Source: Patescibacteria group bacterium (GTDB lineage: Bacteria > Patescibacteriota > Patescibacteriia > Buchananbacterales > UBA6539). Taken from it: a stretch of 64,000 bases of DNA. The notes under the pieces were generated by a model. It saw nothing but the letters and a program-made list of their open reading frames with translations. It was not told the DNA's origin and searched no databases. Of the stretch, positions 10,469 to 50,048 are shown piece after piece (the stretch's first letter is position 1; each line of letters opens with the position of its first letter). The DNA is taken from the NCBI GenBank assembly GCA_041662625.1, contig JBAZSB010000001.1, positions 791,710 to 855,709 on the forward strand, written 5' to 3'. Position numbers and translations under genes: made by a program.

Positions 10469-10497
10469 TTTGACAAATTATTTGAATAAGGGTAAAT
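10469..10497 (+). promoter_or_regulatory. sigma70-like promoter (TTGACA-17-TAAATA) for GC-rich small ORF
   Basis: Read directly; followed by RBS AAAGGAGA and ATG 10552. Confidence 0.4.
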
Positions 10498-10551
10498 AAA
10501 AAAGGGGGCTTACCAAAACCGCACTTAAAAGTAGCGGGGAAAGGAGACGGT

Positions 10552-10788
10552 ATGACTGAAGACAGGCAACTGCCCAAAGACTTGAGACCGGGCGATATCC
10601 TGGTCTTCGATAGCAACACAGAAACACCGGTTCAGGCGGTGGTTGATCGTGGAGGGCCAGACGTCCAGATAATACTGGCCAGCGGGCCACCAGACCGAAG
10701 GAACAATTCCCTCTTTCCTATCACCATTAGCAAAAATGGGAATGGCGGCTTGCGCTATCCCGCCAACATCACCACGGTGAAGCGGTAA
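10552..10788 (+). CDS. small GC-rich hypothetical protein (78 aa)
   Basis: ORF with GGAGA RBS, GC-rich codons, followed by hairpin terminator at 10811-10845. Confidence 0.35.
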   Translation: MTEDRQLPKDLRPGDILVFDSNTETPVQAVVDRGGPDVQIILASGPPDRRNNSLFPITISKNGNGGLRYPANITTVKR

Positions 10789-10869
10789 TTGTTTGCGGAC
10801 TTATCTTATTGTGGCTCAGCCTCGCCTGAGCCCTTTCTTTTTTAAGACTTACTGATATAATAAATATAT

Positions 10870-11043
10870 ATGCTTTTGCTCAACACAAGCGCCAAAACCG
10901 GCTGGTTTCAGCTGGGAATAATAGTGGTAATGACAATTATTAGCTTTTATTTTATCAAAGAAGCTTTTGCCAAAACCCTGATTGAATGGCAAAATGTAAA
11001 TGAACTCCAGCAGACCGAAATCCAAGGAATGTTAGACCAATAG
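10870..11043 (+). CDS. small hydrophobic peptide (57 aa), hypothetical
   Basis: ORF MLLLNTSAKTGWFQLGIIVVMTIISFYFIKEAF... followed immediately by a strong terminator. Confidence 0.25.
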   Translation: MLLLNTSAKTGWFQLGIIVVMTIISFYFIKEAFAKTLIEWQNVNELQQTEIQGMLDQ

Positions 11044-11046
11044 ATT

Positions 11047-11102
11047 AAAAAATCACCCGGCCAAAATATTGTAGAACCATTTTTTGGCCGGGTGATTTTT
11101 TG
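11047..11102 (+). terminator. rho-independent terminator (18-bp stem AAAATCACCCGGCCAAAA/TTTTGGCCGGGTGATTTT + T-run)
   Basis: Perfect inverted repeat read directly; flanked by A-run and T-run (bidirectional). Confidence 0.8.
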
Positions 11103-11214
11103 TTAGAAACAATAGAATTGACAAGGTTAAGAAGAAGGTGTTAATTTAAAATATCCTGACAAAGAGCAGGATGAAGCAGCTAACCATAGGCTCAAACGGA
11201 GGAGGTCAAGACAT

Positions 11215-12264
11215 ATGGATACATCGGTTTACGCCGCCTTTGCAGACGGCACAAGAGTTGAAGAAAAGGTCCTCAGAGTACTAAAGAGGTTCGCGCCCGA
11301 CGGGCACCTCGACGTCCTGGCCTGCGACCAGGACAACTCGTTCCGCTCGATGTTGAAGAAGTTCCACACCAACTGCCGGGCCGCGGGCGGCAGAACCGAG
11401 GATTATCCGGAAGTTCCGGAGGATTTGCATGTAACCATTCTCAGCCGGCTGCTGGCGAGGACATTGGGCCGCGGCCATCACGCCGCCTTGTTCAACCAGC
11501 TTGGCTTCAAGAAAGGCGGGTTCCGCGAGGACCTGGGCGAGGAAACAATGTTGCTCGGCCGTCTCGAGAACACCAAGTTCGCCGATGGACCGGACGGCGG
11601 GCAAGTTGCCCAACTGGCCATCGAGCCTGAAGAAGCCGACCCGTACGTCGACGGTTTCAAGACGCTGGTCAAGGTCGATCCGGCCAAGCCGGCGAGTTGG
11701 GAGGCCAATCTTGCGTGGCTGCGCGACGTTGACGCGCGGTGCAAGGCACTCGGCAAACCGCTATTTAACGAGACCTTGTACACGCCGCCGGCCGATGTCT
11801 CCAAACTCGTGATGGCCCAGAACTTACCCGGCGCCCTGCTGAAAATCGCCCTCGCCTTCGGTCCCTTTGGCACCTTTTACAAAACCCAGGTGCCACTGGC
11901 ATGGGTCGAAGGCGTCGCGGTCGGCCATTCCGGCGGTATCAGAACCAACATCGGCTTCATGGCTGAGCTCATCAAACGCCCGCTGTTGATCCTATCGGCA
12001 GCAGTCGACTTCGACCAGTACGCGCTGCAATTCGCGTCGATTGCCGATTTGGCCGTCGGGCCGATGTGCGGACGGGCCTATTTCAAAGACCCGTTCAGCG
12101 ACCCGGCCGTGAGCAACTGGGAACTGCTCGAGCACGCCATCGCCGAAATCGCCCTGCCGCGCATGAAACTGATCCGCGGCATGATGCAAAATGTCGGCCG
12201 ACCCTGGTGGGCGGACTTCAAGGAAGTATCGCCGGCGGCGAAAACGCTGCTCGGCCTCAGCTAG
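11215..12264 (+). CDS. class I aldolase of the LacD/DUF2090 family (tagatose-1,6-bisphosphate-aldolase-like), GC-rich
   Basis: 'VLACDQDNSFRSML' resembles LacD 'ALAFDQRGALKRMM'; C-terminal 'GPMCGRAYF' resembles LacD 'GVLCGRATW'; strong RBS GGAGGAGG; high GC3. Confidence 0.5.
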   Translation: MDTSVYAAFADGTRVEEKVLRVLKRFAPDGHLDVLACDQDNSFRSMLKKFHTNCRAAGGRTEDYPEVPEDLHVTILSRLLARTLGRGHHAALFNQLGFKKGGFREDLGEETMLLGRLENTKFADGPDGGQVAQLAIEPEEADPYVDGFKTLVKVDPAKPASWEANLAWLRDVDARCKALGKPLFNETLYTPPADVSKLVMAQNLPGALLKIALAFGPFGTFYKTQVPLAWVEGVAVGHSGGIRTNIGFMAELIKRPLLILSAAVDFDQYALQFASIADLAVGPMCGRAYFKDPFSDPAVSNWELLEHAIAEIALPRMKLIRGMMQNVGRPWWADFKEVSPAAKTLLGLS

Positions 12265-12300
12265 GCCCCAAATCCGAGGAGGGCAGAACAATTACAACAA

Positions 12301-12336
12301 CGCCGCGTCGGCTTTCCGATGCGGCGAATTTTTTTA
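12301..12336 (+). terminator. rho-independent terminator after aldolase-like gene
   Basis: CGCCGCGTCGGCTTTCCGATGCGGCG hairpin + AATTTTTTT. Confidence 0.7.
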
Positions 12337-12378
12337 CTTAACTTATTAACTTGCCAACTTACAAACTTAGCAGCTGAT

Positions 12379-14181: not shown

Positions 14182-14328
14182 ATTATGAATTGATTATATC
14201 GCAGTTTTAGGTTATTATAAAGTAAATTAGAAGGTAGATTGGTAGAACGGTAGGGCTGTAGAGCCTAATTAGTCAGCTACTTACCTACTGATCTACCAAT
14301 CTACTAACCTACTTACCTAAACTATACT

Positions 14329-15408: not shown

Positions 15409-15430
15409 AATTAAAATTGCCTTTAAATAA

Positions 15431-15481
15431 AAGAAACAGTCTGTCCTTACTGCCTCCTTGCTTTCAGACAGACTGTTTTTC
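15431..15481. terminator. bidirectional rho-independent terminator between guaB and the pilin gene
   Basis: 12-bp stem AAACAGTCTGTC/GACAGACTGTTT with U-runs on both strands. Confidence 0.8.
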
Positions 15482-15525
15482 AAATTGTGCCTTGGGAAGG
15501 GTCTGGCGCACGACGCTACTCGGCG

Positions 15526-15951
15526 CTACTCTTTGGCGGGTTCGCTGTCGGCCTTGGCTGGATTGTGCATATTCTGCCGAACGGTACCGGATTGGTCGAC
15601 ATAGAAGAAGCGATTGCCCGTCTCGCTATCAGCTACGGGTTCGGCCGTGGCAGCAAAGTTGTCGCCGCTACCCGTCAGATCGAACTTGTAGCCCCTCTTT
15701 TGTGCTACCTGATTCCCATCGAGGAACGGCGGCGTAGCCGCAGTTAGCTCTTCGAGAGTGCTGGCGTACTTGCCGTTGGTGGACTTGAAAGCCTGTTGGG
15801 CCCCAACGACGGCACGCAGACTGCCGATCGCAGCGGCTTCATTCGATTGCATCCGCGACCGGAGCAGGTTGGGGATCGCGATCGCCGCGATGATCGCAAT
15901 AATCGCAACAACAATCATCAACTCAATCAGTGTGAACCCGTTCTTTCTCAT
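15526..15951 (-). CDS. type IV pilin / pseudopilin (prepilin-type N-terminal cleavage-methylation domain), GC-rich
   Basis: 'MRKNGFTLIELMIVVAIIAIIAAIAIP' class-III signal peptide; RBS GGAGGA; high GC3. Confidence 0.8.
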   Translation of the reverse strand: MRKNGFTLIELMIVVAIIAIIAAIAIPNLLRSRMQSNEAAAIGSLRAVVGAQQAFKSTNGKYASTLEELTAATPPFLDGNQVAQKRGYKFDLTGSGDNFAATAEPVADSETGNRFFYVDQSGTVRQNMHNPAKADSEPAKE

Positions 15952-16159
15952 GTAGTGTCCTCCATTCTATTCGAGGCGCTATGGCCTCACCCAATTGCTG
16001 GCGTGATTCGCCGGATTGGCAAATCAAACTCGCCAAGCTTCTAAAGACATTAGCAAAAGTCCACTATCTTGTCAAAGGTCTTTTGGCGTATTCATCAAAT
16101 ATAAAAGAAGGTAACCTTGGTTAAGCTACCTTCTCTATTATTTTATTACCTATTTAAAT

Positions 16160-18541: not shown

Positions 18542-19831
18542 ATGCCAATGAACCAAGGCTTCACCCAAGAGTTGTTTCCAATTCTGGACCAACTGCTGGC
18601 TGCTTTTCCCGCACCGTTCCATATCATGCATGAACGAGGGATAATCGATACAGCTCAGCAACTTCACCGCGTACTGCGCCAAGCGTGCCCGCAGTTCCGC
18701 AACTTCTTTGCCGTCAAGGCCAATTCCAACCCGGAAGTTCTCCGACTGCTCTACGAGCAAGGTATGGGGTTTGACTGCAGCTCAATCGTCGAACTTCGGC
18801 TGGCGCGAGCAACAGGTGCTAAACCGGAAGACATCTTCTTCACTTCGAATGACACTTCGCAGGAAGAGTTTGAAGAAGCAATGTCGGCCGGTGGCTGCAT
18901 TCTCAACCTCGATGACAAGGGATTGATTCCGAAAGTACCAGAGCCATTCCCGAAGTCGATCTGTTTCCGCTGGAACGCAGGCAAACTGCGCGTCTTGGAC
19001 AGCGTCATCGGCAACCCAGAAACCTGCAAGTACGGAGTACCGCACGAACAGATTGTTGATGCCTATCGGCTTGCCCAAGAACGTGGCGCCGAGCGCTTCG
19101 GCCTGCATGCGATGCTTGTTTCAAATGAACGAAACTGGGAATGTCATGCCCAGACCGTCGGCATGCTACTGGAAACCGCCGCGCTACTGGAAACCGAACT
19201 CGGCATCCGCGTTGAGTTCATTAATATGGGCGGCGGGCTTGGTATTCCCTACCGTCCTGAAGATGAACCGGTAGCGCTCGAACAACTGGCCGAAGCGATT
19301 AGCAAAGCTATGGCAGCTTTCGAGGCAGAACACAAATGGCGGCCGCTGCTGCGTTCGGAAAACGGCCGCTACGTTACCGGTCCACACGGTGTCTTCATTG
19401 CCCGATGCATCAATGAAAAGCACGGCTACCGCGAATTCCGAGGCGTTAATGTCTCAGCAATGGCTGCCGTGATGCGTCCGACAATGTATCACCCCAAAGG
19501 TGGCTATCACCACATTACCGTTTTTGAACCCCCTTTGGATGAACCGGTCATATGTAGTGTAGTCGGTCCGGCCTGCGAAGATAGCGATCGCTTTGGCTGG
19601 GATCGGCTACTCTCACTTCACGAAGGTCAGCACGTTTTTGTCCATGACATCGGCGCCCACGCTACGGAAATGGGAAGTAACTACAATAACCGCCCCAAGC
19701 CGCCGATGCTGATGTTGCGCCAAAACGGCCAAATTGATCTGATTGAGCCGGGCCAGACCGTCGAAGAATTGGTGGCGAAACGCTTTCGCTACCTCGAGCA
19801 GCCATGGTCATTTAAGCCTGCTGGGCAATGA
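18542..19831 (+). CDS. PLP-dependent decarboxylase, Orn/DAP/Arg decarboxylase family 2 (diaminopimelate-decarboxylase-like), GC-rich
   Basis: 'FFAVKANSNPEVL' PLP-lysine motif, 'GGGLGIPY', 'CEDSDRF' ; RBS GGAGGA. Confidence 0.8.
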   Translation: MPMNQGFTQELFPILDQLLAAFPAPFHIMHERGIIDTAQQLHRVLRQACPQFRNFFAVKANSNPEVLRLLYEQGMGFDCSSIVELRLARATGAKPEDIFFTSNDTSQEEFEEAMSAGGCILNLDDKGLIPKVPEPFPKSICFRWNAGKLRVLDSVIGNPETCKYGVPHEQIVDAYRLAQERGAERFGLHAMLVSNERNWECHAQTVGMLLETAALLETELGIRVEFINMGGGLGIPYRPEDEPVALEQLAEAISKAMAAFEAEHKWRPLLRSENGRYVTGPHGVFIARCINEKHGYREFRGVNVSAMAAVMRPTMYHPKGGYHHITVFEPPLDEPVICSVVGPACEDSDRFGWDRLLSLHEGQHVFVHDIGAHATEMGSNYNNRPKPPMLMLRQNGQIDLIEPGQTVEELVAKRFRYLEQPWSFKPAGQ

Positions 19832-19870: not shown

Positions 19871-21148
19871 ATGATGACACAAAGCCCCATAGACATCCGC
19901 CGCTCTTTCGGAGCGGGAATCGGTGGCGCCACCTTTGGTGACGATACCGCCGAGTATCTGTTCGGCCGAATCAAACGGCTCCGCCTGAAGTTTCAAATCG
20001 AACATCCGGACATCACAGTGCTAAACTTCGGCATTGGCGAACCGTATAACGGTCCGGATCATATCGTGCGGGAAGCGGCTGTAACGGCTATCCGCGATTC
20101 CCGGTTTGACGGGTACCCGGACCTTGGTTTGGCTAAACTAAGAGAAGCAGCGGCTTCTCATTTCCAAACCGTCTTCGGACTAAGCTACCAGCTCGACCCG
20201 GAAACCCATGTCCAGGACTGTTGGGGAATCAAGCCTAGCCTTGACGCCTTAACCAAGGTGTTCTGCTCTCCCGGCAATCAGGAGTGGCCGGTTGCGCGAA
20301 TCCAGGTCGCGGTGACTACACCAGGCTACCCGGTTTTTGGCACCCAGGCCGCCAAACTCGGCGCCCAAGTTATCACCATGCCAGTGACCAGAGAAAACGG
20401 TTACCTACCGGACATCTCGGTTCTGGAGAAAGCCGCGCACCTTCACGCCATCTACCTGATTAGTCCGCACAATCCGACTGGCCGAGCCTACGATACCGAG
20501 GCTGGCTGGTGGCAGAAAGTCGTGGACTTCTGCCGCGAGAGAAGTGTCGCGTTGATCGTCGATGAAGCCTACTGCCATCTGCGCTGGGCGCCGGGCAAGC
20601 CGTTCACCGCTCTGTCTATTCCGGGTTTCATGGATGTCGGCGTTGTTTTGCACTCCGTCTCCAAAACCTTGGACTGGACCAGCGGCCGCATCGGCTGGGT
20701 GGTCGGCAATCCGATGATTATCCGGGCATACCGGAAAGAGTACGAAGACTCTTCTTCTGGCCAAACCCTGGCTCTGCAATGGGCCGCGGCAGAAGCGCTG
20801 AACAACTTCGGCTTGATCGTACCTAAAATCCAAGCCGACTATCGGCGGCGGCTGGAGGGACTGATCAAGATACTCCAAAGCCGGGGCTTCCCCGTTCAAA
20901 TGCCCGACGGCGGGTTCTTCATCTTCAGTCCGGCGCCGACGTATTGCGGCGGTCAGACTATTGCCGATGCCGAGGAGTTCATGCAGTACCTACTGAATGA
21001 GCACGGCATCGTCAGCGTTCCTTTCGGCGACCATATCCGGTTCGCCAGCACAGTCAAAGTCGGCGGTCCAGGCCAGCCGGCAACATACGAACGGGCACTA
21101 GAAATGCTCAACGAACGCCTGCCTGAAGTGTTCCAATTCAAATCGTAA
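19871..21148 (+). CDS. class I/II aminotransferase (LL-diaminopimelate-aminotransferase-like), GC-rich
   Basis: 'LNFGIGEPY', PLP lysine region 'HSVSKTLDWTSGRIGWVVGN'; RBS AAGGGAG; 36 nt downstream of the decarboxylase (operon). Confidence 0.8.
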   Translation: MMTQSPIDIRRSFGAGIGGATFGDDTAEYLFGRIKRLRLKFQIEHPDITVLNFGIGEPYNGPDHIVREAAVTAIRDSRFDGYPDLGLAKLREAAASHFQTVFGLSYQLDPETHVQDCWGIKPSLDALTKVFCSPGNQEWPVARIQVAVTTPGYPVFGTQAAKLGAQVITMPVTRENGYLPDISVLEKAAHLHAIYLISPHNPTGRAYDTEAGWWQKVVDFCRERSVALIVDEAYCHLRWAPGKPFTALSIPGFMDVGVVLHSVSKTLDWTSGRIGWVVGNPMIIRAYRKEYEDSSSGQTLALQWAAAEALNNFGLIVPKIQADYRRRLEGLIKILQSRGFPVQMPDGGFFIFSPAPTYCGGQTIADAEEFMQYLLNEHGIVSVPFGDHIRFASTVKVGGPGQPATYERALEMLNERLPEVFQFKS

Positions 21149-21167: not shown

Positions 21168-21221
21168 CCTGCACTAACTTGCGTCGAAACAAGACGTCGG
21201 GTTGGTGCAGGTTCTTTTTTT
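21168..21221 (+). terminator. rho-independent terminator after aminotransferase (overlaps stop of transposase gene on opposite strand)
   Basis: CCTGCACTAAC...GTTGGTGCAGG stem + TTCTTTTTTT. Confidence 0.7.
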
Positions 21222-21870
21222 ACATATTTAACCCCTCCGGATTATTTCTGTCTCGCCACCATTTTTTAGGATTTTCAATAATATATTGCCGGATATTATT
21301 TAATGATTCTTCGTTACGAATAATATGATCATAAAAACGTGATTGCCAGCCAAATTCAATATTGTTACTATTGCCATATTTTTTAACGCTTGATTTAAAT
21401 GCCCGAACCGCAGCAGAAATATTTTTGGATTGCGGGCCAAATTTATTTTCGTATTGTACCGCCGGGCAATTGCGCATTTGAATATTTTGACAACAATTAT
21501 TATCACGTTGTAGAGACGCACAATTGTGCGTCTCTACCCGATTATTAATGTCGTCCAAAAAACCATCAGCGCAATTGCCCGGTACCTGTTTTTTAATTTT
21601 CAATATGGCGTGAATATGATTGGGCATTACAATAAATGAATCTATTTTTATATGTTTGTAATATTTTGGTATTACCTTAAAAAATCTTTTGGCAACATAA
21701 CCAATCCTGTTTAGATGCGCCTTGCAATTAATGACGTCTCCAAAATAACAAATTCTGTCTTTAGCACAAATAGTAATAAAATAATAGCCCGGCCAGGAAT
21801 AATCCCAACCCTTCAATCGGACGGAATCAATTCGATATTTATTTTTAAATAATTCATTATTTTGATACAT
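21220..21870 (-). CDS. HUH Y1 transposase of the IS200/REP-associated (RAYT-like) family, with internal palindromic element
   Basis: 'FIVMPNHIHAIL' HUH motif, C-terminal 'GWQSRFYDHIIRNE' catalytic Tyr region; 216 aa with an insert containing the family-B palindrome. Confidence 0.7.
   Translation of the reverse strand: MYQNNELFKNKYRIDSVRLKGWDYSWPGYYFITICAKDRICYFGDVINCKAHLNRIGYVAKRFFKVIPKYYKHIKIDSFIVMPNHIHAILKIKKQVPGNCADGFLDDINNRVETHNCASLQRDNNCCQNIQMRNCPAVQYENKFGPQSKNISAAVRAFKSSVKKYGNSNNIEFGWQSRFYDHIIRNEESLNNIRQYIIENPKKWWRDRNNPEGLNM
21510..21537. repeat. palindromic element family B, copy 2 (28-nt perfect palindrome GTAGAGACGCACAA|TTGTGCGTCTCTAC) inside transposase CDS
   Basis: Read directly; encodes RVETHNCASLQ in frame, the same peptide (VETHNxASL) as copy 1 in an unrelated gene. 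Confidence 0.9.
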
Positions 21871-21931
21871 AAAAACGCATCTTATGATGCGCTACGTTGA
21901 TTATTAAATTATGTTAATTTTTAATATTTTC

Positions 21932-22006
21932 TGGAGCGGGTGAGCGGAGTTGAACCGCCGTCTCAACCTTGGCAAGGTTGCATAATAGCCGTTATACGAC
22001 ACCCGC
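21932..22006 (-). tRNA. tRNA-Gly (anticodon GCC), CCA encoded
   Basis: Reverse complement: acceptor GCGGGTG/CACCCGC, anticodon stem CAACC/GGTTG loop TTGCCAA, T-arm GGCGG-TTCAACT-CCGCT, 3' TCCA; D-arm pairing irregular. Confidence 0.75.
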
Positions 22007-22054
22007 AAAAGTTACAGAAAGAATTATAACAGAAAGAGAAAAAAATACAAGCCC

Positions 22055-22516
22055 TTAATTCCTTAACCGATATAAAGCCACCGCTGAGGCTACCGCCACA
22101 TTCAACGACTCCTTCTTCCCCAACATCGGAATCTTAACTATATCATCAGCTAAAGCTAAAATCTTTTTACTCACTCCTTTGGTTTCACTGCCGACCACCA
22201 AAGCCAAAGGAAATTTTGGTTTGAAACTAGGCAGAGACTGACTTTTTTTGCCCGTTTCTAAAACCACAATCTTAATCCCCTGTTTTTTTAATTTCTTTAT
22301 CAATAAATGTGTTTGCCAATGTCTTTCCCAAACGATCCACTCATCTGCCCCTAAAGCGGTCTTGGAAATTTCTTTCCGCACTGGAAAACCGGTGTAGCCA
22401 CATAAATAAATCTTTTTAACGCCAAAAACATCGGCACAGCGGAAAAGCGCACCAACGTTATATAGACTGCGGATATTTTGAGCAATTAGATATACTTCTT
22501 TATTTTTTATTGACAT
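22055..22516 (-). CDS. SpoU/TrmH-family RNA 2'-O-methyltransferase (TrmL-like)
   Basis: 153 aa; 'LYNVGALFRCADVFG', 'LVVGSETKGVS...SLNVAVASAVALYRL' SPOUT motifs. Confidence 0.75.
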   Translation of the reverse strand: MSIKNKEVYLIAQNIRSLYNVGALFRCADVFGVKKIYLCGYTGFPVRKEISKTALGADEWIVWERHWQTHLLIKKLKKQGIKIVVLETGKKSQSLPSFKPKFPLALVVGSETKGVSKKILALADDIVKIPMLGKKESLNVAVASAVALYRLRN

Positions 22517-22564
22517 ATCGACATTTTTATCTTAATATAGTTAAAGTTTATAAGCAATAATTTT

Positions 22565-22648
22565 GCCCAGGTGGTGGAACTGGTATACACGCAGGACTTA
22601 AAATCCTGTGGCTGCAAAGCCATGCGGGTTCGATTCCCGCCCTGGGCA
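22565..22648 (+). tRNA. tRNA-Leu (anticodon UAA), CCA not encoded
   Basis: Acceptor GCCCAGG/CCTGGGC, anticodon stem CAGGA/TCCTG loop CTTAAAA, long variable arm, T-arm GCGGG-TTCGATT-CCCGC. Confidence 0.85.
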
Positions 22649-22722
22649 TATAAATCGAAAATGAGTTCGCCTGCCCCACCCGTTATAACAACGTAACAAT
22701 TTATTCACCCAACTTAACTACT

Positions 22723-22864: not shown

Positions 22865-24586
22865 ATGGAATATGCGCAAGGAGTAACCGACCTAAGCCGA
22901 GACCAACTGCGGATCCTCCTTGAAATCGCGGGGATGATCAACACCACCGGCGATCTGAAAGGTCCCCTCTCCCAAGCACTGAGGATGGCCATTGAGGCTA
23001 TCGGCGGCGAGGAAGGCTCCATCTTGATGCTGAATCACGATGGGCTCCTAAGGATCTATGCAGCGTTAGGCATTCCCGAAGAGACTATTCGAACTGTCAA
23101 TGCGAAGGGGATCCAGCTAGGTGAAGGCTTCGCTGGCTGCGTCGCCCAGACGAATAAGCCACTGCTCTTGAATAAAGGCAATGGCCATAGCGTTCGAATC
23201 CAGTCCGCCATCTCTGTCCCGCTATCAGTAGACCATAGGGTAATCGGGGTCCTGAATGTCAGCCGAATCAAATCGGATTTACCCTTCAACGAGCTAGACT
23301 TGGCCATGCTTGTCCATGTGGCAAGGGAACTCTATCCGGTTATCGGCAAACGACGGAACCTCGAAGCCATCTACGAAGCAGCAGTCGCTTTAGCCGCCGC
23401 TACCAGTCTGCCAGAAACTATCTTCGCCATGATGGTGATGAAACAGGCTTTGCTCGTCAACGAGCTTGCTCTGTTCATAGTCGCTGGAGAATATCTGGAA
23501 GAAGTAACCAGCACGACCACTGGCCCTTCGCAGGTCAAGATTCCGCTGGCTGGAGAACCGGCAACTGACGACACGACAACGGCTGCAGTCATAATCCAAT
23601 CCCTCCGTGGGAAAAAGATGATTGTCTGCAACGAAGTGACGCCTGGAGCTAGTGACCAACGCCCATTTGCCGTTATTCCCTTCTTCGATCCGCGGCAAAA
23701 GCCAGAAGGGGCAATAGTCATCTACGGCGAAGTCGGCTGCGCGGTCACCCAGGAGGAAACCACGGTCATCCAAACCTTTGCCCGCATTGTTGCCCTGCAA
23801 ATCTCCCACCTCCAAGATATAGCGGACAAAAAACAAGGTCAGCAACGGATGGTCTTTATCCTCGCCGCCGCCTTGGAATTCCGCAGCCACTACACCGCCG
23901 GGCACTCCAACCGCGTCAGCACCTATGCCGTCGCCGTAGGGAAAAAACTCGGCCTCCGTCCCGAGGAACTCCTGCTTTTGGAGCACGGCGGGCTAATCCA
24001 CGATATCGGCAAAATCGGAATTCGCGACGAGGTCTTGGAAAAACCTGGCCAGCTCACTGTGGAAGAATGGGCCGAGATGAAACAACATCCCGATCGTGGC
24101 GTGGCGATGATTAAGGATGGCGGCGCTTTCAGTGAAGGTGTCGCGCGGTTCATCCTAAGACACCACGAACGTCCGGATGGTAAAGGTTATCCCAATGGGA
24201 TTGGTGAAGATCAGCTCACGACCGCCGAGCTCATCCTTGGGGCAGTGGACTGTTTTGATGCCATGACCTCCCGCCGTAACTACCGGCAGGAACATAAAGA
24301 CGGGATGCCGATCGAAGCCGCCATCCTGGAAATGATCCGGTGCAGCGGCACGCAGTTCAACACCCAGGTGGTCCAAGCGCTGATTAGCGCCTTGAAAGAT
24401 GGGATCCAGATCGACGAAGATGGTGGTAGCCGAACAATGCTACTTGGGCCAACCGAGTGTCAAGCCATCGCGACCGCCCTCCTTCACCGGTCAACGCCGG
24501 ATCCCAACCCAGCCGACAGGCAACAGATCAGTAGCCAAATCGCTACCCAGTTCGCGACCCTGTTTCCGTTGACAACTGCGGGCTGA
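22865..24586 (+). CDS. GAF-domain / HD-GYP-domain protein (putative c-di-GMP phosphodiesterase), GC-rich
   Basis: HD-GYP signature 'HDIGKIGIRDEVL...HHERPDGKGYPNGIGEDQ'; N-terminal GAF-like region; ATG 22865 with RBS GGAAGGAG preferred over TTG 22841. Confidence 0.8.
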   Translation: MEYAQGVTDLSRDQLRILLEIAGMINTTGDLKGPLSQALRMAIEAIGGEEGSILMLNHDGLLRIYAALGIPEETIRTVNAKGIQLGEGFAGCVAQTNKPLLLNKGNGHSVRIQSAISVPLSVDHRVIGVLNVSRIKSDLPFNELDLAMLVHVARELYPVIGKRRNLEAIYEAAVALAAATSLPETIFAMMVMKQALLVNELALFIVAGEYLEEVTSTTTGPSQVKIPLAGEPATDDTTTAAVIIQSLRGKKMIVCNEVTPGASDQRPFAVIPFFDPRQKPEGAIVIYGEVGCAVTQEETTVIQTFARIVALQISHLQDIADKKQGQQRMVFILAAALEFRSHYTAGHSNRVSTYAVAVGKKLGLRPEELLLLEHGGLIHDIGKIGIRDEVLEKPGQLTVEEWAEMKQHPDRGVAMIKDGGAFSEGVARFILRHHERPDGKGYPNGIGEDQLTTAELILGAVDCFDAMTSRRNYRQEHKDGMPIEAAILEMIRCSGTQFNTQVVQALISALKDGIQIDEDGGSRTMLLGPTECQAIATALLHRSTPDPNPADRQQISSQIATQFATLFPLTTAG

Positions 24587-28141: not shown

Positions 28142-29602
28142 ATGTTGAAAAAATCCGTTCTGGTCGTAGTAGTCGTAGTTTTGTTCCTTACAATACCCGT
28201 CACAAGTTTTGCCAGTGACGAAAATGAAGGCCCAAGTCCCTATTGGTTAATCCCGTTCGCGACAGTGCTTCTGTCCATCGCGGTGATACAATTCATCACC
28301 AAACGTCGGTGGGACATGAATGTAGCGGTCGGTCTAGGTCTGCTAGTCATCGGCTACTACATGTCAGAAAACCCACAAAGGATGACCGAGACAGGTTTGG
28401 AGTATTTCAGTTTCCTTTCCTTGATCGGCTCGCTGTTTGTGGTTTCCGGCGGAATTTATATCAATGTTCCATCGGGCAGGGCGACACCTCTGACTAACGT
28501 CGGACTTTTGGCAATAGGTGCAGTGGTGGCGAATATTGTTGGTACAACCGGTGCCAGTATGATGTTGATCCGGCCATACCTTCAGCTCAACAAAGGCCGG
28601 GTCAGACCTTACCACATTGCATTTTTTATCTTTGTGGTAAGCAATATCGGCGGTGCCGTAACACCAGTTGGCGATCCGCCACTGCTGATGGGCTATCTCC
28701 AGGGAATCCCATTTTTCTGGATCAGCGGCCGGGTACTCCCCATCTGGTTCATGACTGTAGGTATCGTGTTAGTGGAGTTCTTCATCATCGACCTGCTCCA
28801 CTTCCAGAAATTGCCCAAGGGACAAGAGGCGATAACAAAAGCCGAAGCAGAACCAGGGCAGAAAACCGGAGGATTGCTGAATGTTATCTTCATCTGTGTT
28901 ATCCTCGGAGCGGTTTTCTGGACTACTCCCTGGCGGGAAGTGGTAATGATTGGTAGCGCTGCGGGCTCGTGGGTCTACACTCGTCTGATGGAACCTTGGA
29001 TCCACCAGAACAACAAGTTCAGCTTTGCACCAATCACCGAAGTGGCGATTCTCTTCTTTGGAATTTTCGCCACGATGGTTCCAGCCCTGGAATGGCTAGA
29101 AACGAATGCCGCAAGCCTGGGAATTCAAACGGCCGGCCAATTCTTCTGGGCAACCGGATCGCTGTCGGCAGTGCTGGACAATACGCCGACGTACCTGAAT
29201 TTCCTATATACTGCGATGGGATTACTGGTGAATCCAGAAACCATTGCTCAGGTGCAAGCTGTCTTGAATAACCCCGAGCTGCTCTTGGCAAGTAGTCAGA
29301 ATGTCCAGACGTTGGTTGCGGGGATCAATCAGTACTTCCCCGGGCAGGTACTTTCTGCCGACCAGATGCAGGTTGCTTACTTGATGATTTTGTGGCCAAA
29401 GTTCTTGGTCGCAATCTCAATCGGGGCCGTGTTCTGTGGTGCCATTACCTACATTGGTAATGGCCCGAATCTGATGATCTGGGCCTTCGTGAAGGAACAT
29501 GAATTACCGTGTCCGAGCTTCTTCGGGTACATATTCAAGTATTCCCTGCTGTACCTAATTCCAGTCTTCGTCCTGGTATGGCTGGTCATGTTCGTCCTTT
29601 AG
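28142..29602 (+). CDS. ion-transporter-superfamily permease (ArsB/NhaD-like), GC-rich
   Basis: Signal peptide + about 12 TM helices; 'GGAVTPVGDPPLLMGY' motif shared with ArsB/NhaD-family 'GG..T..GDPPN'; ATG 28142 preferred over upstream start. Confidence 0.6.
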   Translation: MLKKSVLVVVVVVLFLTIPVTSFASDENEGPSPYWLIPFATVLLSIAVIQFITKRRWDMNVAVGLGLLVIGYYMSENPQRMTETGLEYFSFLSLIGSLFVVSGGIYINVPSGRATPLTNVGLLAIGAVVANIVGTTGASMMLIRPYLQLNKGRVRPYHIAFFIFVVSNIGGAVTPVGDPPLLMGYLQGIPFFWISGRVLPIWFMTVGIVLVEFFIIDLLHFQKLPKGQEAITKAEAEPGQKTGGLLNVIFICVILGAVFWTTPWREVVMIGSAAGSWVYTRLMEPWIHQNNKFSFAPITEVAILFFGIFATMVPALEWLETNAASLGIQTAGQFFWATGSLSAVLDNTPTYLNFLYTAMGLLVNPETIAQVQAVLNNPELLLASSQNVQTLVAGINQYFPGQVLSADQMQVAYLMILWPKFLVAISIGAVFCGAITYIGNGPNLMIWAFVKEHELPCPSFFGYIFKYSLLYLIPVFVLVWLVMFVL

Positions 29603-35148: not shown

Positions 35149-36522
<1,374 letters not shown>

Positions 36523-37575: not shown

Positions 37576-38473
37576 TTACCAATTGCTCCTTCTGGTTCTG
37601 ATATCTAAATTATTTTTTGAAAAAGGGTGACGACGGACCAAGTCACTTCGCTTCGACTCCAAAGGAGTGAATTGAGGTGAACGGACTGGTCCGTCGTCGA
37701 TTGACTGGCTTCCGACCATCGGGAGATTTTCCTCTCCAGGTCGCTTCCGCAGGAAGCTACGTAACGATGAGCCCGAAAGCCTTCGCGTGTACGCCGGCGG
37801 CACCGAGACCCTGTACGCGTTTCTTCTGCGCGATGTCATGGCTGCCGGCCAACTTCTTCCGATTACGCGTCTCAACGATCTCAGCAAATGGTCCCATGGG
37901 TAACCTCCAATCTTTTGGGGGCTCGATGGCTCCCCACCTAGTTACGGACCTCCATGTTGGTCCGATTATTCGTATATTAACAAAAAATAATAAATTATAC
38001 AAGCCTTTTTGTTTGCCATGCCGGCCTACGAGCCGGCATCTGGGATTCTGCGACAAAACTCTGGATTCCGGATTCACATTTTAAGGCTATTATTGACAAA
38101 AAATGAGAGTTGAACTATATTGGAAAAGTGCCGCTTGGGCCGCTATAAAAAGGCCCATAGCGACCAGTGTCGCCGCGGTCAAAGCGGACAACGGCGACGT
38201 TGATCGGTCCGGACCAGGCGTGGTCCGAGGCCACAGAAGTGGAAACGAAAAGGCGACAACCTCTATAGGAGAAAAAGGTTCGGGGAATTTAAGGGTCTGA
38301 CCAGCCTCTGGCAAATCAGGTGGAATTCCTGAACAGCTAGTAGAGCAAACGTGCTCTTGCCATATTCCCCTTGCTTACTTAAAATTAGGATGAAATACTA
38401 GAGTTTAATGCCAAGGGTAAAACTAAGGCATTTTTTTATAAAAAAATATATGGCCCACAGGCCATATATTTTT
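37576..38473 (+). other. GC-rich non-coding island (about 0.85 kb) with sigma70-like promoters (TTACCA-17-TGATAT at 37576-37604; TTGACA-17-TATATT at 38094-38122) and two tandem terminators (38407-38437, 38446-38473); candidate structured ncRNA(s) or decayed acquired gene
   Basis: No ORF >135 aa on either strand despite high GC; long-range complementary segments GACGACGGACCA (37630-37641) / TGGTCCGTCGTC (37687-37698); hairpins GCTTCC-GCA-GGAAGC, ATGCCGGC-CTACGA-GCCGGCAT; I could not match tmRNA, RNase P or SRP consensus. Confidence 0.3.
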
Positions 38474-44140: not shown

Positions 44141-44197
44141 AAATTAGCATCTCTCCTTGTATTACTTAAGTAAAGTTTAGTCTTGGCTGATAATTCT

Positions 44198-44557: not shown

Positions 44558-44728
44558 TTTTTCACCCCCTTCCTTGTTAATTGAAATTATCTAAATCTAA
44601 TATACCACAAAGCTAAAAAAAATACTAGCTTATTCCAACTTTGTCATCAAGAACAAAAACGACAAAAAAGTAGTAATGGGATTTACAAAAAGGAAAAAAT
44701 ATGCTAAAATATAAGTAGATTCAAAACT

Positions 44729-46957: not shown

Positions 46958-47091
46958 AAATAAAAAATTGAAAAAATAAAAATACTAATCCAACTTAACT
47001 AATATATCTAACTATTATTCATAAAAGTAGGAAGGAGATAACTATGATCCATTAATTACACCTACTATTTACAAATAATTTTAACGTTTTT

Positions 47092-48033: not shown

Positions 48034-48125
48034 TATTAATCTACTGAAAAACACCTCGGTAAATCCCGAGGTGTTTTTATTTATTGAAGCTTGAATTTTA
48101 TAACTTTACCATTTTCATTCTAAAC

Positions 48126-48677
48126 TCACTTCACCTTAAATATACCTCCATGGCCGGGAATAATGTAATTGGCAATATCCAAAACTTTTTTCCGGCTGGC
48201 TTCTAATTTTTTCGAATCAGTCGCATAGGGGTCAGCTTTAGGATAATCTTTTCTCCAAAAAACATCGCCAACAATTGCGACTAAACCAACGTCAGTTTTG
48301 ACCAGTAAACTCAAAGCATCATAATTATGCCCAGGAGTTTTAATTATTTCAATATCATCAGTTAACTGGTCTGGCCAGTCATCACAATTGCCTTTATCCC
48401 AAACGCCAAAATATTCCACAGTTTTAGCTTCGGGAAACATGCCAATATTACGATAATGATCCAAGTGGGAATGAGTGACAAAAACATAATTAACATCAGA
48501 AACCTTCAGACCTTCTTTGTTTAAAGCTTCTATTAAAAGATTTTGACTTTCTAAAACTCCCGGGTCAACTACCATAATGATATGTTGATCACGGACTAAA
48601 GTGATAGTCGGACAAGTTTGGCCTTCACCAGAATCACCACTAGTATAACCTTCAATTAAAATTTTTGCAGAAGCCAT
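48126..48677 (-). CDS. MBL-fold metallo-hydrolase
   Basis: 'VFVTHSHLDHYRN' HxHxDH motif, downstream His/Asp ligands. Confidence 0.8.
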   Translation of the reverse strand: MASAKILIEGYTSGDSGEGQTCPTITLVRDQHIIMVVDPGVLESQNLLIEALNKEGLKVSDVNYVFVTHSHLDHYRNIGMFPEAKTVEYFGVWDKGNCDDWPDQLTDDIEIIKTPGHNYDALSLLVKTDVGLVAIVGDVFWRKDYPKADPYATDSKKLEASRKKVLDIANYIIPGHGGIFKVK

Positions 48678-48686
48678 AAGGTATTT

Positions 48687-49211
48687 TTAACTATTGATTA
48701 ACTGCTGAATAATACTTAACCTTTCTTCCAAGGATTGCGCCATGTTCATTTCAATATATGGCAAATCAAATTCTAAAGCCAGTTTAATATGATTATCCGG
48801 AAATACCCGTTGAAATTTCGCCGCCAAGTCAAGCGGACTGATCACCCTTTTTTGATCTCCTTGGGTTCGGTCCAACACCCGTTGGATACAAGTTTCCGCA
48901 TCCAGCAGACAGAATATAACTTTAATATTAAATTTATCTTTCAAATTATTAATGCCACTCATATTTAATTCCTCCCGATTGGTGCCAATTTCCAAAATTA
49001 AATTTTTATCCATTTTACCTAAATCCTGATGCATCTCTTGATGAGCGGCCAAAGATCCTGCCGGCTCAATGTGTCCGGTTTCATCTTTATACTTTTGAAT
49101 ATAATTAAAAACATCAATAAAATCAAAGTCCGGGTATTGTTCAATAATTTTTCCAATCAAAGTTGATTTGCCGCAAGCAGACGGACCGCAAAAAACAATT
49201 AGGTTATTCAT
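48687..49211 (-). CDS. P-loop NTPase, putative nucleoside/nucleotide kinase
   Basis: 'VFCGPSACGKSTL' Walker A; size 174 aa. Confidence 0.55.
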   Translation of the reverse strand: MNNLIVFCGPSACGKSTLIGKIIEQYPDFDFIDVFNYIQKYKDETGHIEPAGSLAAHQEMHQDLGKMDKNLILEIGTNREELNMSGINNLKDKFNIKVIFCLLDAETCIQRVLDRTQGDQKRVISPLDLAAKFQRVFPDNHIKLALEFDLPYIEMNMAQSLEERLSIIQQLINS

Positions 49212-49311
49212 AATTAATAAATTTGGGTTGACAAAATCAATTCACTGTGTTATTTTAAGAAGTCACTGGCAGGATTGGTCTCAATCAGAAATCATAGAAA
49301 GGAATGGATGG

Positions 49312-50001
49312 ATGGAAACTTTTGGCAAGGTGACCAACACCTCTGTCAGACTCTTGCTCTTTGATGTAGATCGGACTCTCTATCCGAGCGATGAAGCGGG
49401 TGAAGCTTTCATTAAAGGCAGAGGGTTGACAGAGCTTGAGCAATTAGCCACTCTCTTTCGGTGGTCAACCGAGCTGATGCAAAGGGCAATTGCCCGACAT
49501 AGGGCTATAGCGGCAGACCAAGACCGGCCAATCAGCAGGACCGAGGCAGTCTATCGGCTTTTGCAGGACTGGCAAATTGATGCTGCCAAGTGGAGTCAGC
49601 GGCGGGCCGAGATTTACTGCCCGGACGGTAAAATAACCATTGTACCGGAGGTTAAGGTGGCAATGGAGCAACTCGCTCCGCACTACCAGATTTGCTTCGG
49701 GACGACTTCACCACCAGCGATGGCTCAGCGGGTTTTGGAGCTAACTGGTATTACTGAAGTGATACCACAGGCCAAGGTGTTTGGCGATGAGAGCTTCAGT
49801 CTGGAAGCCATCAAGCCCAATCCAATGTTCTTTACCCGGATTTCCCAAGCCTTCGGCTTCACACCAGACCAGGTAGTCTCGATCGGCGATCGAAAAGATC
49901 GGGACATTGACCCGGCCTTGGACGCTGGCTATGCCGGCGGAATCCTCATTACTGGGCCAGCCGAGCTACCCCAAGTGGTAGAACTGCTTAAGCGCGCCTA
50001 A
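49312..50001 (+). CDS. HAD-family hydrolase, GC-rich
   Basis: Motif I 'LLFDVDRTLY', motif IV 'SIGDRKDRDIDPALDAG'; internal ATG with RBS AGGAATGG chosen because track start would overlap the upstream gene; sigma70-like promoter TTGACA-17-TATTTT at 49228-49256. Confidence 0.65.
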   Translation: METFGKVTNTSVRLLLFDVDRTLYPSDEAGEAFIKGRGLTELEQLATLFRWSTELMQRAIARHRAIAADQDRPISRTEAVYRLLQDWQIDAAKWSQRRAEIYCPDGKITIVPEVKVAMEQLAPHYQICFGTTSPPAMAQRVLELTGITEVIPQAKVFGDESFSLEAIKPNPMFFTRISQAFGFTPDQVVSIGDRKDRDIDPALDAGYAGGILITGPAELPQVVELLKRA

Positions 50002-50006
50002 ACTGC

Positions 50007-50048
50007 AGATCACTCGGTCTTGCCACGGATCAAGTGATCTTTTTTTAT
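50007..50048 (+). terminator. rho-independent terminator after HAD gene
   Basis: AGATCACT...AGTGATCT stem + TTTTTTT. Confidence 0.7.

What the first reader, a model, noticed from the sequence alone, without database searches (positions are those of the whole stretch)
10469..50048. Compositional mosaic: seven short GC-rich islands, six each carrying one or two genes with canonical GGAGG ribosome-binding sites and a terminator, the seventh non-coding, embedded in a Shine-Dalgarno-poor AT-rich backbone
Seven GC-rich islands interrupt a backbone that is roughly 35-40% GC by eye. They are at about 10500-10850, 11200-12340, 15480-16050, 18420-21220, 22800-24740, 28040-29640, 37580-38400 and 49260-50040. 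Each coding island carries one or two GC3-rich genes:
- a LacD-like aldolase;
- a type IV pilin;
- a PLP decarboxylase plus an aminotransferase;
- a GAF/HD-GYP protein;
- an IT-superfamily permease;
- a HAD hydrolase.
Each of these genes is preceded by a strong AGGAGG-type RBS, and all but the aminotransferase have a TTGACA-type promoter or an AT-rich upstream flank; each gene or gene pair is followed by a stem-loop terminator. Backbone genes, for example atpA, atpD, ruvB and galU, mostly lack any SD. This points to repeated single-gene acquisition from a high-GC donor, for example an actinobacterial host if this is an epibiont. A chimeric assembly is the alternative. HD-GYP c-di-GMP signalling and a DAP-type decarboxylase/aminotransferase pair would be unusual cargo for a reduced genome.
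Basis: partly seen in the sequence, partly recalled or inferred. Interest (0 to 1): 0.8.

Follow-up and report, generated by a model that had tools for sequence, protein, structure and literature searches.

The report
Swappable GC-rich accessory genes in a Patescibacterium
An AT-rich ultra-small groundwater bacterium (Buchananbacteria-like Patescibacteria) carries GC-rich accessory genes with classic ribosome-binding sites at fixed chromosomal slots; these are real, horizontally exchanged genes, mostly shared with other Patescibacteria and mostly older than the species, not fresh imports from a high-GC host and not an assembly error.

Summary
Eight intervals (10.0 kb) average 53.7% GC against 39.0% for the rest of the window. 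All nine ORFs in them have a Shine-Dalgarno (SD) site, against 3 of 51 backbone genes. Each also has a TTGACA promoter in the AT-rich flank and an intrinsic terminator.

Chimerism is excluded: independent assemblies (99.97% identical) span five of the eight intervals, and related species carry GC-rich genes at the same positions.

- The genome is a Buchananbacteria-like Patescibacterium with a conserved gene order.
- The islands sit in recurrent variable slots: lysA-like plus dapL-like or ddh; GAF/HD-GYP; a transporter; pilins.
- Related species hold different, often only 27-31% identical, versions in shuffled combinations, or nothing.
- For the lysA-like, dapL-like, GAF/HD-GYP and permease genes the closest homologues found are in other Patescibacteria. 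For the aldolase, beyond one sister species, they are unidentified non-CPR bacteria and Planctomycetota/Omnitrophota. No closest homologue is actinobacterial.
- Six of nine island ORFs predate the split from the nearest relatives.
- The link between GC-rich genes and SD sites recurs in four related species.

This is a known kind of event (gene exchange among Patescibacteria). The notable parts are exchange of coding sequences inside conserved expression sites and the SD/GC split.

The parts
10552..10788 (+). Island 1: 78-aa ORF of unknown function. GC 0.54, GC3 0.62. SD is AAAGGAGA. The TTGACA promoter is at about 10470 and the terminator at 10813-10832.
   Evidence: A 65% identical ORF lies at the same position in relatives L004/L005.
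11215..12264 (+). Island 2: distant LacD-like class I aldolase, 349 aa. GC 0.61, GC3 0.77. SD is GGAGGAGG. The TTGACA promoter is at about 11118 and the terminator at 12301-12326.
   Evidence: An ortholog (73% aa, GC3 0.66) sits in the same slot in L004/L005. The gene is absent from L009-L016.
15526..15951 (-). Island 3: type IV (pseudo)pilin with an N-terminal methylation motif, 141 aa. GC 0.57, GC3 0.68. SD is TGGAGGA. It has a TTGACA promoter and a terminator.
   Evidence: GC-rich, SD-led pilin paralogues lie in the same slot in L004/L089 and L013.
18542..19831 (+). Island 4a: lysA-like PLP decarboxylase (type DC-A), 429 aa. GC 0.54. SD is CGGAGGA. TTGACA promoters are at 18408 and 18482.
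   Evidence: It is 81% identical to the L089 gene and 69% to the L010 gene in the same slot.
19871..21148 (+). Island 4b: dapL-like class I/II aminotransferase (type AT-A), 425 aa. GC 0.57. SD is GAAGGGAG. It is co-transcribed with 4a. The terminator is at about 21165-21215.
   Evidence: It is 71% identical to the L009/L093 gene but only 26% to the aminotransferase of the closest relative, L089.
22865..24586 (+). Island 5: GAF + HD-GYP protein, 573 aa. GC 0.55. SD is GGAAGGAG. It lies downstream of tRNA-Leu (22564-22649). The resident promoter is at about 22757-22790 and the twin terminators at 24640-24730.
28142..29602 (+). Island 6: NhaD/CitMHS_2-type ion-transporter-superfamily permease, 486 aa. 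GC 0.50, GC3 0.60. SD is AAGGAGGAG. The promoter at 28044-28071 matches 11 of 12 consensus positions. The terminator is at about 29645-29675.
   Evidence: The slot is empty in L003 and holds a GC-rich Na+/H+ exchanger in L094. The junctions are confirmed by L097.
37580..38400 (.). Island 7, the 'non-coding' island. It contains a minus-strand 46-aa ORF (37757-37897) with a GGAGG SD and a long-stem terminator. It also contains a plus-strand TTGACA promoter (about 38094) followed by a 275-nt structured RNA candidate (38126-38400).
49312..50001 (+). Island 8: HAD-family hydrolase, 229 aa. GC 0.54, GC3 0.57. The SD is weak (AAAGGA). The TTGACA promoter is at about 49232 and the terminator at about 50006-50045.
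   Evidence: The junctions are confirmed by L096. The gene is absent from the corresponding slot in relatives L098, L101 and L106.
21220..22649 (.). Low-GC spacer between islands 4 and 5. It holds a RAYT-like ORF (21220-21870, minus strand), tRNA-Gly (21932-22006, minus strand), spoU-type methylase (22055-22516, minus strand) and tRNA-Leu (22564-22649, plus strand). This is conserved backbone that defines the two slots.

Best explanation
The window comes from a Buchananbacteria-like Patescibacterium (Parcubacteria) whose core gene order is conserved across species. The GC-rich islands are its flexible genome. They are single genes or two-gene operons sitting in a few recurrent intergenic slots: amidohydrolase|spoU, spoU-tRNA-Leu|ruvB, bPH|atp operon, guaA|LTD, guaB|amidohydrolase and DUF1653|MBL.

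Genes in these slots are gained, lost and, above all, replaced by functionally analogous but distantly related versions. The replacements come from a gene pool shared mainly among Patescibacteria and seeded ultimately from higher-GC, SD-using bacteria.

I infer that replacement works by DNA uptake followed by recombination through the conserved flanks. The resident TTGACA promoter and the terminators stay in place, while the coding sequence with its SD is exchanged.

The islands differ in age. Aldolase, lysA, pilin, the 78-aa ORF, the dapL type and the GAF type predate splits from sampled relatives. HAD, the permease and the non-coding island are lineage-specific. Differing age explains the graded GC3 (0.57-0.77) as partial amelioration.

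Core genes initiate translation without an SD, using A/U-rich unstructured leaders. The GC-rich imports keep an SD, probably because the ribosome still has a usable anti-SD and GC-rich 5' ends need it.

**Shown:** composition, the SD split, synteny, replacement, age, and the absence of chimerism.

**Inferred:** the recombination mechanism, the ultimate donors, and that the SD sites function.
For: **Identity and lineage**
- Source proteins are annotated 'Patescibacteria group bacterium' on a 922-kb contig.
- The nearest guaA loci are Ca. Buchananbacteria MAGs.

**Not chimeric**
- L001, L002, L097 and L096 come from ENA and Logan assemblies. They are 99.96-99.98% identical across 5081-16820, 25098-36064 and 43341-60001.

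**Slots and replacement**
- The backbone order is conserved in at least 8 species, while slot content varies.
- The lysA/dapL slot holds two decarboxylase types (about 27% identical), three aminotransferase types (27-31% identical) or Ddh, in shuffled combinations. It is empty in L011 and L016.
- The GAF/HD-GYP coding sequence is 29% identical between the window and L003, inside flanks that are 85-90% identical.
- The transporter slot holds an NhaD-like permease, a Na/H exchanger, or nothing.
- The HAD slot holds other genes in relatives.

**Age (identity at four-fold degenerate sites)**
- Aldolase 0.57, dapL 0.50 and GAF versus L094 0.56, against a backbone of 0.39-0.65.
- GAF versus L093 and L095 is 0.25, which is saturated, so those alleles are older than the species split.

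**Donors**
- The closest homologues are mostly Patescibacteria. There the genes are again GC-rich and SD-led, for example in Jacksonbacteria locus L092, next to TraG/T4SS genes.
- The aldolase's nearest non-CPR relatives (53-56%) lie in contigs of 47% and 68% GC.

**The SD/GC link is clade-wide**
- In 91 genes from four related species, 14 of 16 GC-rich genes have an SD against 7 of 75 others (p = 1e-9).

**Literature**
- Most gene transfers into Patescibacteria come from other Patescibacteria and are not recent (PMC12455944).
Against: - No mobility genes, integrase or flanking direct repeats were found. There is only a weak RAYT-like ORF, and no target duplication at the permease junction. 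The insertion mechanism therefore remains inferred.
- Ultimate donors are unidentified for every island.
- GC elevation of the lysA-like gene in three different CPR 'phyla' could instead reflect a maintained compositional state rather than turnover.
- The 16S rRNA 3' end was not available, and about half of Parcubacteria are reported to lack the anti-SD motif (PMC9297842). Function of the SD sites is therefore untested.
- Junctions at 16.8-25.1 kb and 36.1-43.3 kb are supported only by synteny, not by an independent assembly of the same genome. For the non-coding island (37580-38400) not even synteny is available, because the relative's contig ends just before it.
Confidence: 0.75

Rival explanations
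1. Recent, repeated single-gene import from one high-GC donor, for example an actinobacterial host of an epibiont.
For: - GC3 reaches 0.77, borders are sharp, and the SD sites are canonical.
- HAD, the permease and the non-coding island have no positional counterpart in sampled relatives.
Against: - No actinobacterial protein appears among the closest homologues of any tested island. The nearest hits are Patescibacteria, or Planctomycetota, Omnitrophota and Verrucomicrobiota at 56% identity or less.
- Six island ORFs are shared, in position, with species about 24% diverged in DNA.
- The aldolase has co-diverged with the backbone.
- The islands differ in GC3 (0.57-0.77), which argues against a single donor and a single time of transfer.
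Confidence: 0.06
2. The genes are native and long resident. Their high GC and their SD sites are actively maintained rather than being relics of transfer. The cause would be GC-biased gene conversion at recombination hot spots, or selection on a separate SD-dependent expression class.
For: - The same gene families are GC-elevated and SD-led at the same slots in many species, and even in Jacksonbacteria.
- GAF alleles with saturated synonymous divergence are still GC-rich in the window and in L095 (GC4 0.70-0.73).
- A conserved strong SD on low-GC T4SS-pilin genes shows that an SD-dependent class exists.
Against: - Distribution is patchy, with empty slots.
- Replacements are non-orthologous: DapL types versus Ddh, two LysA types, two GAF types.
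- GC elevation stops exactly at the ends of the coding sequence, SD and terminator, while the recombining flanks remain AT-rich.
- In L093 and L094 the GAF GC4 (0.45 and 0.57) has fallen to backbone level, as amelioration predicts.
Confidence: 0.15
3. An assembly or binning artefact, in which contigs of a GC-rich organism were spliced into an AT-rich genome.
For: The only support is the composition itself. The source is a metagenome-assembled genome.
Against: - Four contigs from two other assemblies (MEGAHIT/ENA and Logan) reproduce the junctions of five islands at 99.97% identity.
- Orthologous GC-rich genes lie in the same positions in other species from other samples.
- Island borders coincide with promoters and terminators, not with arbitrary break points.
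- There is no match to plasmid or phage collections.
Confidence: 0.02

Closest known systems
Individually transferred genes and genomic islands in Patescibacteria (mSystems 2025, PMC12455944)
   Same: - Accessory metabolic, transporter and surface genes in streamlined CPR genomes.
- Donors are mostly other Patescibacteria, with Omnitrophota among the outside donors.
- Most transfers are not recent.
   Different: - Here the units are one or two genes, each with its own SD.
- They sit in recurrent slots of a conserved backbone and are replaced in situ.
- The link between these genes and SD usage was not seen in the passages of that paper that I read.
Replacement-type flexible genomic islands and xenologous gene displacement. 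This is a general concept recalled from my own knowledge.
   Same: - The same chromosomal site in related genomes holds different, functionally analogous genes.
- The flanks are conserved and can serve recombination.
   Different: - Classical examples are multi-gene surface-glycan clusters within a single species.
- Here the units are single genes, the exchange crosses species and genera, and the cargo includes lysine/DAP end-pathway enzymes (DapL types versus Ddh).
Classical tRNA-linked, integrase-borne genomic islands
   Same: - Atypical GC content and patchy distribution.
- Two islands lie beside tRNA-Leu and tRNA-Gly.
   Different: - No integrase.
- No flanking direct repeats were seen.
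- Each island is only 0.35-2.8 kb.
- No mobility genes apart from a weak RAYT-like ORF.
SD-poor translation regimes. Examples are the Parcubacteria lacking the anti-SD motif (PMC9297842) and the Bacteroidetes-type sequestered anti-SD (my own knowledge).
   Same: Nearly all core genes lack an SD and have A/U-rich leaders.
   Different: A defined minority does carry strong SD sites, conserved across species: the imported GC-rich genes and the T4SS-pilin genes. This implies the anti-SD is probably still present. It was not tested.

Membership tests
Horizontally acquired flexible genes (replacement islets) | Composition atypical for the host genome | tested here: met
   GC3 z-scores are 3.9-7.8 against 51 backbone genes.
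Horizontally acquired flexible genes (replacement islets) | Patchy presence, or different content, at the same site in related genomes with conserved flanks | tested here: met
Horizontally acquired flexible genes (replacement islets) | Gene phylogeny incongruent with the species phylogeny | tested here: inconclusive
   No trees were built. Identity patterns are incongruent:
- The closest relative, L089, has AT-C, whereas the more distant L093 shares AT-A.
- GAF four-fold-site identity is saturated against L093 and L095 but not against L094.
Classical integrase-borne genomic island | Integrase or recombinase, flanking direct repeats, and insertion into a tRNA gene | tested here: not met
   - There is no integrase among the annotated ORFs (and the Pfam listings).
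- No duplication is seen at the permease junction.
- The tRNAs are adjacent but intact.
Integron gene cassettes | An array of promoterless cassettes with attC sites next to intI | tested here: not met
   Each unit has its own promoter and terminator, and the units are dispersed rather than arrayed. No intI is present.
Diaminopimelate decarboxylase LysA (TIGR01048) | Score above the curated equivalog cut-off (297.9 bits) | tested here: not met
   The score is 227.9 bits. Both Pfam domains are present, and identity to annotated proteobacterial LysA is about 50%. It is LysA-like, and its function is inferred.
LL-diaminopimelate aminotransferase DapL (NF004937) | Score above the curated cut-off (585 bits) | tested here: not met
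   The score is 284 bits, and DapL models are the best hits. Pairing with lysA, and substitution by Ddh in L094 and L095, support a role in forming DAP.
HD-GYP c-di-GMP phosphodiesterase | HD_5 domain with the HD...HHE...GYP motifs | tested here: met
   PF13487 scores 82.9 bits. The motifs HDIGK and HHERPDGKGYP are visible in the alignment. Enzymatic activity was not tested.
Type IV pilin or pseudopilin | N-terminal prepilin cleavage/methylation motif | tested here: met
   PF07963 scores 36.4 bits against a cut-off of 21.2, and TIGR02532 scores 37.6 against 16.3.
LacD-type tagatose-1,6-bisphosphate aldolase | Membership of the curated family, and catalytic residues | tested here: not met
   - NF009498 scores 40.5 bits against a cut-off of 184.
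- There is no Pfam hit.
- A family profile reaches LacD structures only at E = 1e-6, although over the full length.
- It is a distant relative, and its substrate is unknown.
Known RNA families (for the non-coding island) | An Rfam covariance-model match | tested here: not met
   Nothing reaches gathering scores. Only chance-level hits appear at E <= 1.

The most novel reading that the evidence does not exclude
In this SD-poor Parcubacteria lineage the genome may run two translation-initiation regimes, partitioned by gene class.
- Core genes would initiate without an SD.
- The exchangeable gene pool, together with the T4SS pilins, would form a stable SD-dependent, GC-rich class that persists through speciation.

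The resident promoter and terminator 'expression sites' would then act as plug-in sockets into which SD-bearing coding sequences are swapped by recombination. On this reading GC content and the SD would be maintained features of a mobile gene pool shared among CPR bacteria, not merely decaying traces of foreign origin.
Probability: 0.25. Interest if true: 0.6.

Novelty: new member of a known kind. Interest (0 to 1): 0.38.

Why it matters
- **Gene exchange in reduced genomes.** The window gives a clean, assembly-verified example of how an ultra-small, reduced genome renews its accessory functions. These include the end of the DAP/lysine pathway, c-di-GMP turnover, ion transport, pili and a sugar-phosphate aldolase. 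Renewal happens by swapping single genes at fixed sites.
- **Source of the genes.** The pool drawn on is mainly internal to Patescibacteria rather than host-derived.
- **A practical marker.** In SD-poor lineages of this kind, SD presence combined with high GC3 flags the flexible genome.
- **A testable question.** The result raises the question of whether these ribosomes keep a working anti-SD.
- **A caution.** High-GC islands in CPR metagenome-assembled genomes should not be read automatically as host-derived or as contamination.

Tried and rejected
**Searches that returned nothing**
- Rfam at gathering and at permissive thresholds found nothing for the non-coding island.
- A single-sequence PDB search with the aldolase found nothing. 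A profile was needed.
- Plasmid and phage megablast of 10.4-30 kb gave no match.
- IMG/VR scans with the aldolase profile and with lysA found no relatives. There is therefore no sign of phage or plasmid carriage.
- A metagenome scan with the HAD protein found no close relative.
- A search for a 16S rRNA 3' end in the 177 fetched loci, to read the anti-SD, found none.
- The supplements of PMC9297842 are not held.

**A look that was uninformative**
- I looked for a target-site duplication at the permease insertion and saw none.

**Ideas rejected**
- Integron cassettes and a classical integrase island were rejected. There is no attC, intI or integrase, and each unit has its own promoter and terminator.
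- A synthetic or vector origin was rejected, because orthologues exist in other species.
- A protein-composition explanation for the high GC was rejected, because GC3 is the most elevated codon position.

**An error of mine**
- My first four-fold-site run for GAF used an out-of-frame start (22866). That row is invalid and was redone.

Full report

Yes.
- The 400-bp composition profile shows abrupt rises from about 35-40% to 50-60% GC at the stated positions.
- The eight listed intervals total 10,008 bp at 53.7% GC. The remaining 54 kb is 39.0% GC, and the 300-bp flanks are 27-44%.
- The 51 backbone ORFs have GC3 of 0.382 +/- 0.050, with a maximum of 0.48. The nine island ORFs have GC3 of 0.57-0.77 (z = 3.9-7.8). 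GC3 is the most elevated codon position, so the effect lies in the nucleotides and not in amino-acid composition.
- I scored the 20 nt upstream of each start against CACCUCCUUU. All nine island ORFs pair at -7.2 kcal/mol or lower (median -9.4). Only 3 of 51 backbone ORFs do (median +0.3; Fisher p = 1.5e-8). The contrast survives giving each backbone gene its best alternative start.
- Every island unit has a TTGACA -35 box in the AT-rich flank and a stem-loop plus T-run terminator.

Corrections:
- Eight intervals are listed, not seven.
- Interval 10500-10850 carries an unlisted 78-aa ORF.
- The 'non-coding' island contains a 46-aa ORF with a GGAGG site and a candidate RNA.
- Four starts lie downstream of the longest ORF.
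- The HAD and aminotransferase SD sites are weaker than AGGAGG.

**2. Is it an assembly chimera?**

No.
- The proteins belong to an NCBI MAG ('Patescibacteria group bacterium', locus tags WC675_) on a 922-kb contig.
- Contigs from other assemblies (ENA ERZ27249449, Logan SRR18595301) are 99.96-99.98% identical over window 5081-13055, 10080-16820, 25098-36064 and 43341-60001. Together they span both borders of five of the eight intervals.
- The lysA/dapL and GAF islands are not covered that way. They are confirmed by GC-rich genes in the same positions in other species from other samples.
- The non-coding island (37580-38400) has neither kind of support, because the relative's contig ends just before it.
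- There is no match to plasmid or phage collections.

**3. What is the organism, and what do its relatives look like?**

- A guaA-anchored scan of species-representative genomes puts the window among Ca. Buchananbacteria and related Parcubacteria MAGs.
- Across at least eight such species the backbone order is conserved: LTD - guaA - guaB - ... - amidohydrolase - spoU - ruvB - bPH. Certain intergenic slots vary.
- The closest sampled relative (contigs L003, L004 and L089) is about 76-82% identical in backbone DNA. RuvB and AtpA are about 90% identical in protein.

**4. What happens in the slots?**

(a) **amidohydrolase|spoU.**
- The window, L009/L093, L010, L012, L013 and L089 carry a lysA-like plus dapL-like operon.
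- L014 keeps only the aminotransferase.
- L095 carries lysA plus a meso-DAP dehydrogenase (Ddh), and the end of L094 shows a Ddh gene in the same place.
- L011 and L016 have nothing.
- There are two decarboxylase types, about 27% identical to each other. There are three aminotransferase types, 27-31% identical. All best-match LysA and DapL models.
- The types occur in shuffled combinations:
  - window: DC-A + AT-A
  - L089, the closest relative: DC-A (81%) + AT-C
  - L093: DC-B + AT-A (71%)
  - L010: DC-A + AT-C
  - L012 and L013: DC-B + AT-B
- In every genome these genes are 7-15 GC points above the backbone, and the first gene has an SD.

(b) **spoU-tRNA-Leu|ruvB.**
- A GAF/HD-GYP gene is present in the window, L093, L094 and L095 (type 1, 54-73% identical) and in L003/L089 (type 2, 29% identical). 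It is absent from L014 and L016.
- Between the window and L003, several elements align at 85-90% identity: the upstream terminator, the TTGACATATC promoter, the first 40 nt or so of the 5' UTR, and both downstream terminators. The coding sequences do not align at the DNA level.
- This is replacement of a coding sequence inside a conserved expression site.

(c) **bPH|atp operon.**
- The window has a low-GC glycosyltransferase-like gene plus the NhaD-like permease.
- L094 has a GC-rich, SD-led Na+/H+ exchanger.
- L003 has 80 bp.

(d) **guaA|LTD.** The aldolase and the 78-aa ORF are present only in the window and in L004/L005.

(e) **guaB|amidohydrolase.** GC-rich, SD-led pilin genes occur in variable number.

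(f) **DUF1653|MBL.** HAD is present only in the window. Relatives carry unrelated genes there.

**5. How old are the islands?**

I measured identity at four-fold degenerate sites of conserved residues.
- Backbone genes give 0.39-0.65, against 0.25-0.32 expected at saturation.
- The aldolase (window versus L004) gives 0.57. The dapL type A (versus L093) gives 0.50. GAF (versus L094) gives 0.56. These genes have co-diverged with the backbone since those splits.
- GAF versus L093 and L095 gives 0.25, which is saturated. Those alleles are older than the species and must have been exchanged.
- GAF GC4 is 0.70-0.73 in the window and L095 but 0.45-0.57 in L093 and L094. This is what amelioration of differing duration predicts.
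- Six of nine island ORFs therefore predate the nearest sampled splits. HAD, the permease and the non-coding island look lineage-specific.

**6. Who are the donors?**

- Aldolase: 73% in the sister species, then 53-56% in unidentified non-CPR contigs (47% and 68% GC, with GC3 up to 0.91). Identity is about 45-50% in Planctomycetota, Brocadiia and Omnitrophota.
- lysA type A: 81-67% in Buchanan-, Falkow- and Jacksonbacteria, then about 50% in Desulfobacterota, Proteobacteria and others. In Jacksonbacteria it is again GC-rich and SD-led, and it sits beside TraG/T4SS genes.
- GAF/HD-GYP: only Buchananbacteria score above 50%, then there is a drop to about 30%.
- Permease: 62% in Buchananbacteria, 47% in Verrucomicrobiota.
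- No closest homologue is actinobacterial.
- This matches a published survey in which 83% of inferred transfers into Patescibacteria came from other Patescibacteria, most of them not recent (PMC12455944).

**7. Translation signals**

- The link between GC-rich genes and SD sites recurs in four related species. Of 91 called genes, 14 of 16 with GC >= 0.47 have an SD, against 7 of 75 others (p = 1e-9).
- A few low-GC genes also have very strong, conserved SD sites. These are the T4SS-pilin-like genes, with AAGGGGGTGAAAA in both the window and L093. This suggests the anti-SD is functional.
- A published analysis found the anti-SD motif missing in about half of Parcubacteria (PMC9297842).
- I could not obtain the 16S 3' end, so whether the SD sites function remains an inference.

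**8. Most likely mechanism**

- Shown: a conserved backbone with a few recurrent slots; single-gene or operon units that are gained, lost and replaced by distant analogues; a resident promoter and terminators retained at the GAF site; islands of differing age; a gene pool mainly internal to CPR.
- Inferred: DNA uptake followed by recombination through the conserved flanks. A type IV pilin is itself among the islands, but competence was not tested. I also infer that the SD is kept because GC-rich 5' regions need it in a genome whose core genes rely on A/U-rich leaders, and that the ultimate origin lies in higher-GC, SD-using bacteria.
- No integrase, attC site, flanking repeat, phage link or plasmid link was found.

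**9. Verdict**

- Horizontal origin and single-gene modularity hold.
- A recent high-GC or actinobacterial host donor, 'unusual cargo', and self-contained imported promoters and terminators do not hold.
- This is a well-documented instance of a known process, gene exchange among Patescibacteria at flexible sites.
- Two features are worth noting. One is in-situ exchange of coding sequences at fixed expression sites, including DapL-type versus Ddh substitution. The other is a clade-wide coupling of SD usage with the GC-rich flexible genes.
- Interest is moderate to low (0.38).

Noticed in passing
window 37580-38400: The 'non-coding' GC-rich island has two parts.
- A minus-strand 46-aa ORF (37757-37897) has a GGAGG SD and a long-stem terminator.
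- A plus-strand TTGACA promoter (about 38094) is followed by a 275-nt GC-rich segment (38126-38400). That segment folds markedly better than shuffled versions (MFE -99.3 kcal/mol, z = -3.25).

There is no Rfam match and no homologue in the 97 loci held at that point. The relative's contig, L003, ends just before this region.
   Followed up: partly
window 44198-44557 (-), 63205-63564 (+), 42981-43406 (-), 62512-63054 (+); L093 20834-21638: Several small T4SS-pilin/TrbC-like genes (PF18895) are present. The two 119-aa copies (44198-44557 and 63205-63564) and an internal start of 42981-43406 carry an exceptionally strong SD, AAGGGGGTGAAAA, with a duplex energy of about -15.5 kcal/mol. The motif is conserved in a related species. 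These are the main SD-bearing genes of the low-GC backbone.
   Followed up: partly
window 14182-14331, 31172-31300, 59980-60084, 60949-61038, 62413-62514; also 34187-34227, 37042-37093, 41547-41575: Backbone intergenic regions contain long hairpins built from short degenerate repeat units (GTAGG... pairing with ...CCTAC). The pyrimidine-rich 3' arm ends directly at the next start codon. This is a different terminator and leader architecture from the compact GC-stem terminators of the islands.
   Followed up: no
window 21220-21870 (-): A low-GC 216-aa ORF has a weak match, below the curated cut-off, to REP-associated tyrosine transposases (E = 4e-15). It lies between the lysA/dapL island and tRNA-Gly. 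Relatives have a TrmB-family gene at that place. It may be a trace of mobility.
   Followed up: no
window 18400-18541: The leader of the lysA-like operon has an unusual layout. A TTGACA/TAAGAT promoter comes first. It is followed by a short GGAAGGAGGCACAGGGCCTC hairpin with a T-run, and then by a second TTGACA box. This could be an attenuator or the remnant of an earlier cassette.
   Followed up: no
L094 24-620; L095 777-1871: In two related species the gene next to lysA is a meso-diaminopimelate dehydrogenase (DAPDH_C) instead of a DapL-like aminotransferase. This is a non-orthologous substitution of the DAP-forming step at the same locus.
   Followed up: partly
L092 1-7800 (Jacksonbacteria LCFM01000004.1): The closest lysA homologue outside Buchananbacteria lies immediately downstream of TraG-like and T4SS-pilin-like genes. 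It is itself a GC-rich, SD-led island there. This hints at conjugative spread within the CPR.
   Followed up: no
window 26636-27958 (+): A low-GC 440-aa glycosyltransferase-like gene (weak LA_3751/LA_3752 family match) is inserted together with the GC-rich permease, relative to L003. The inserted segment is therefore compositionally mixed.
   Followed up: no
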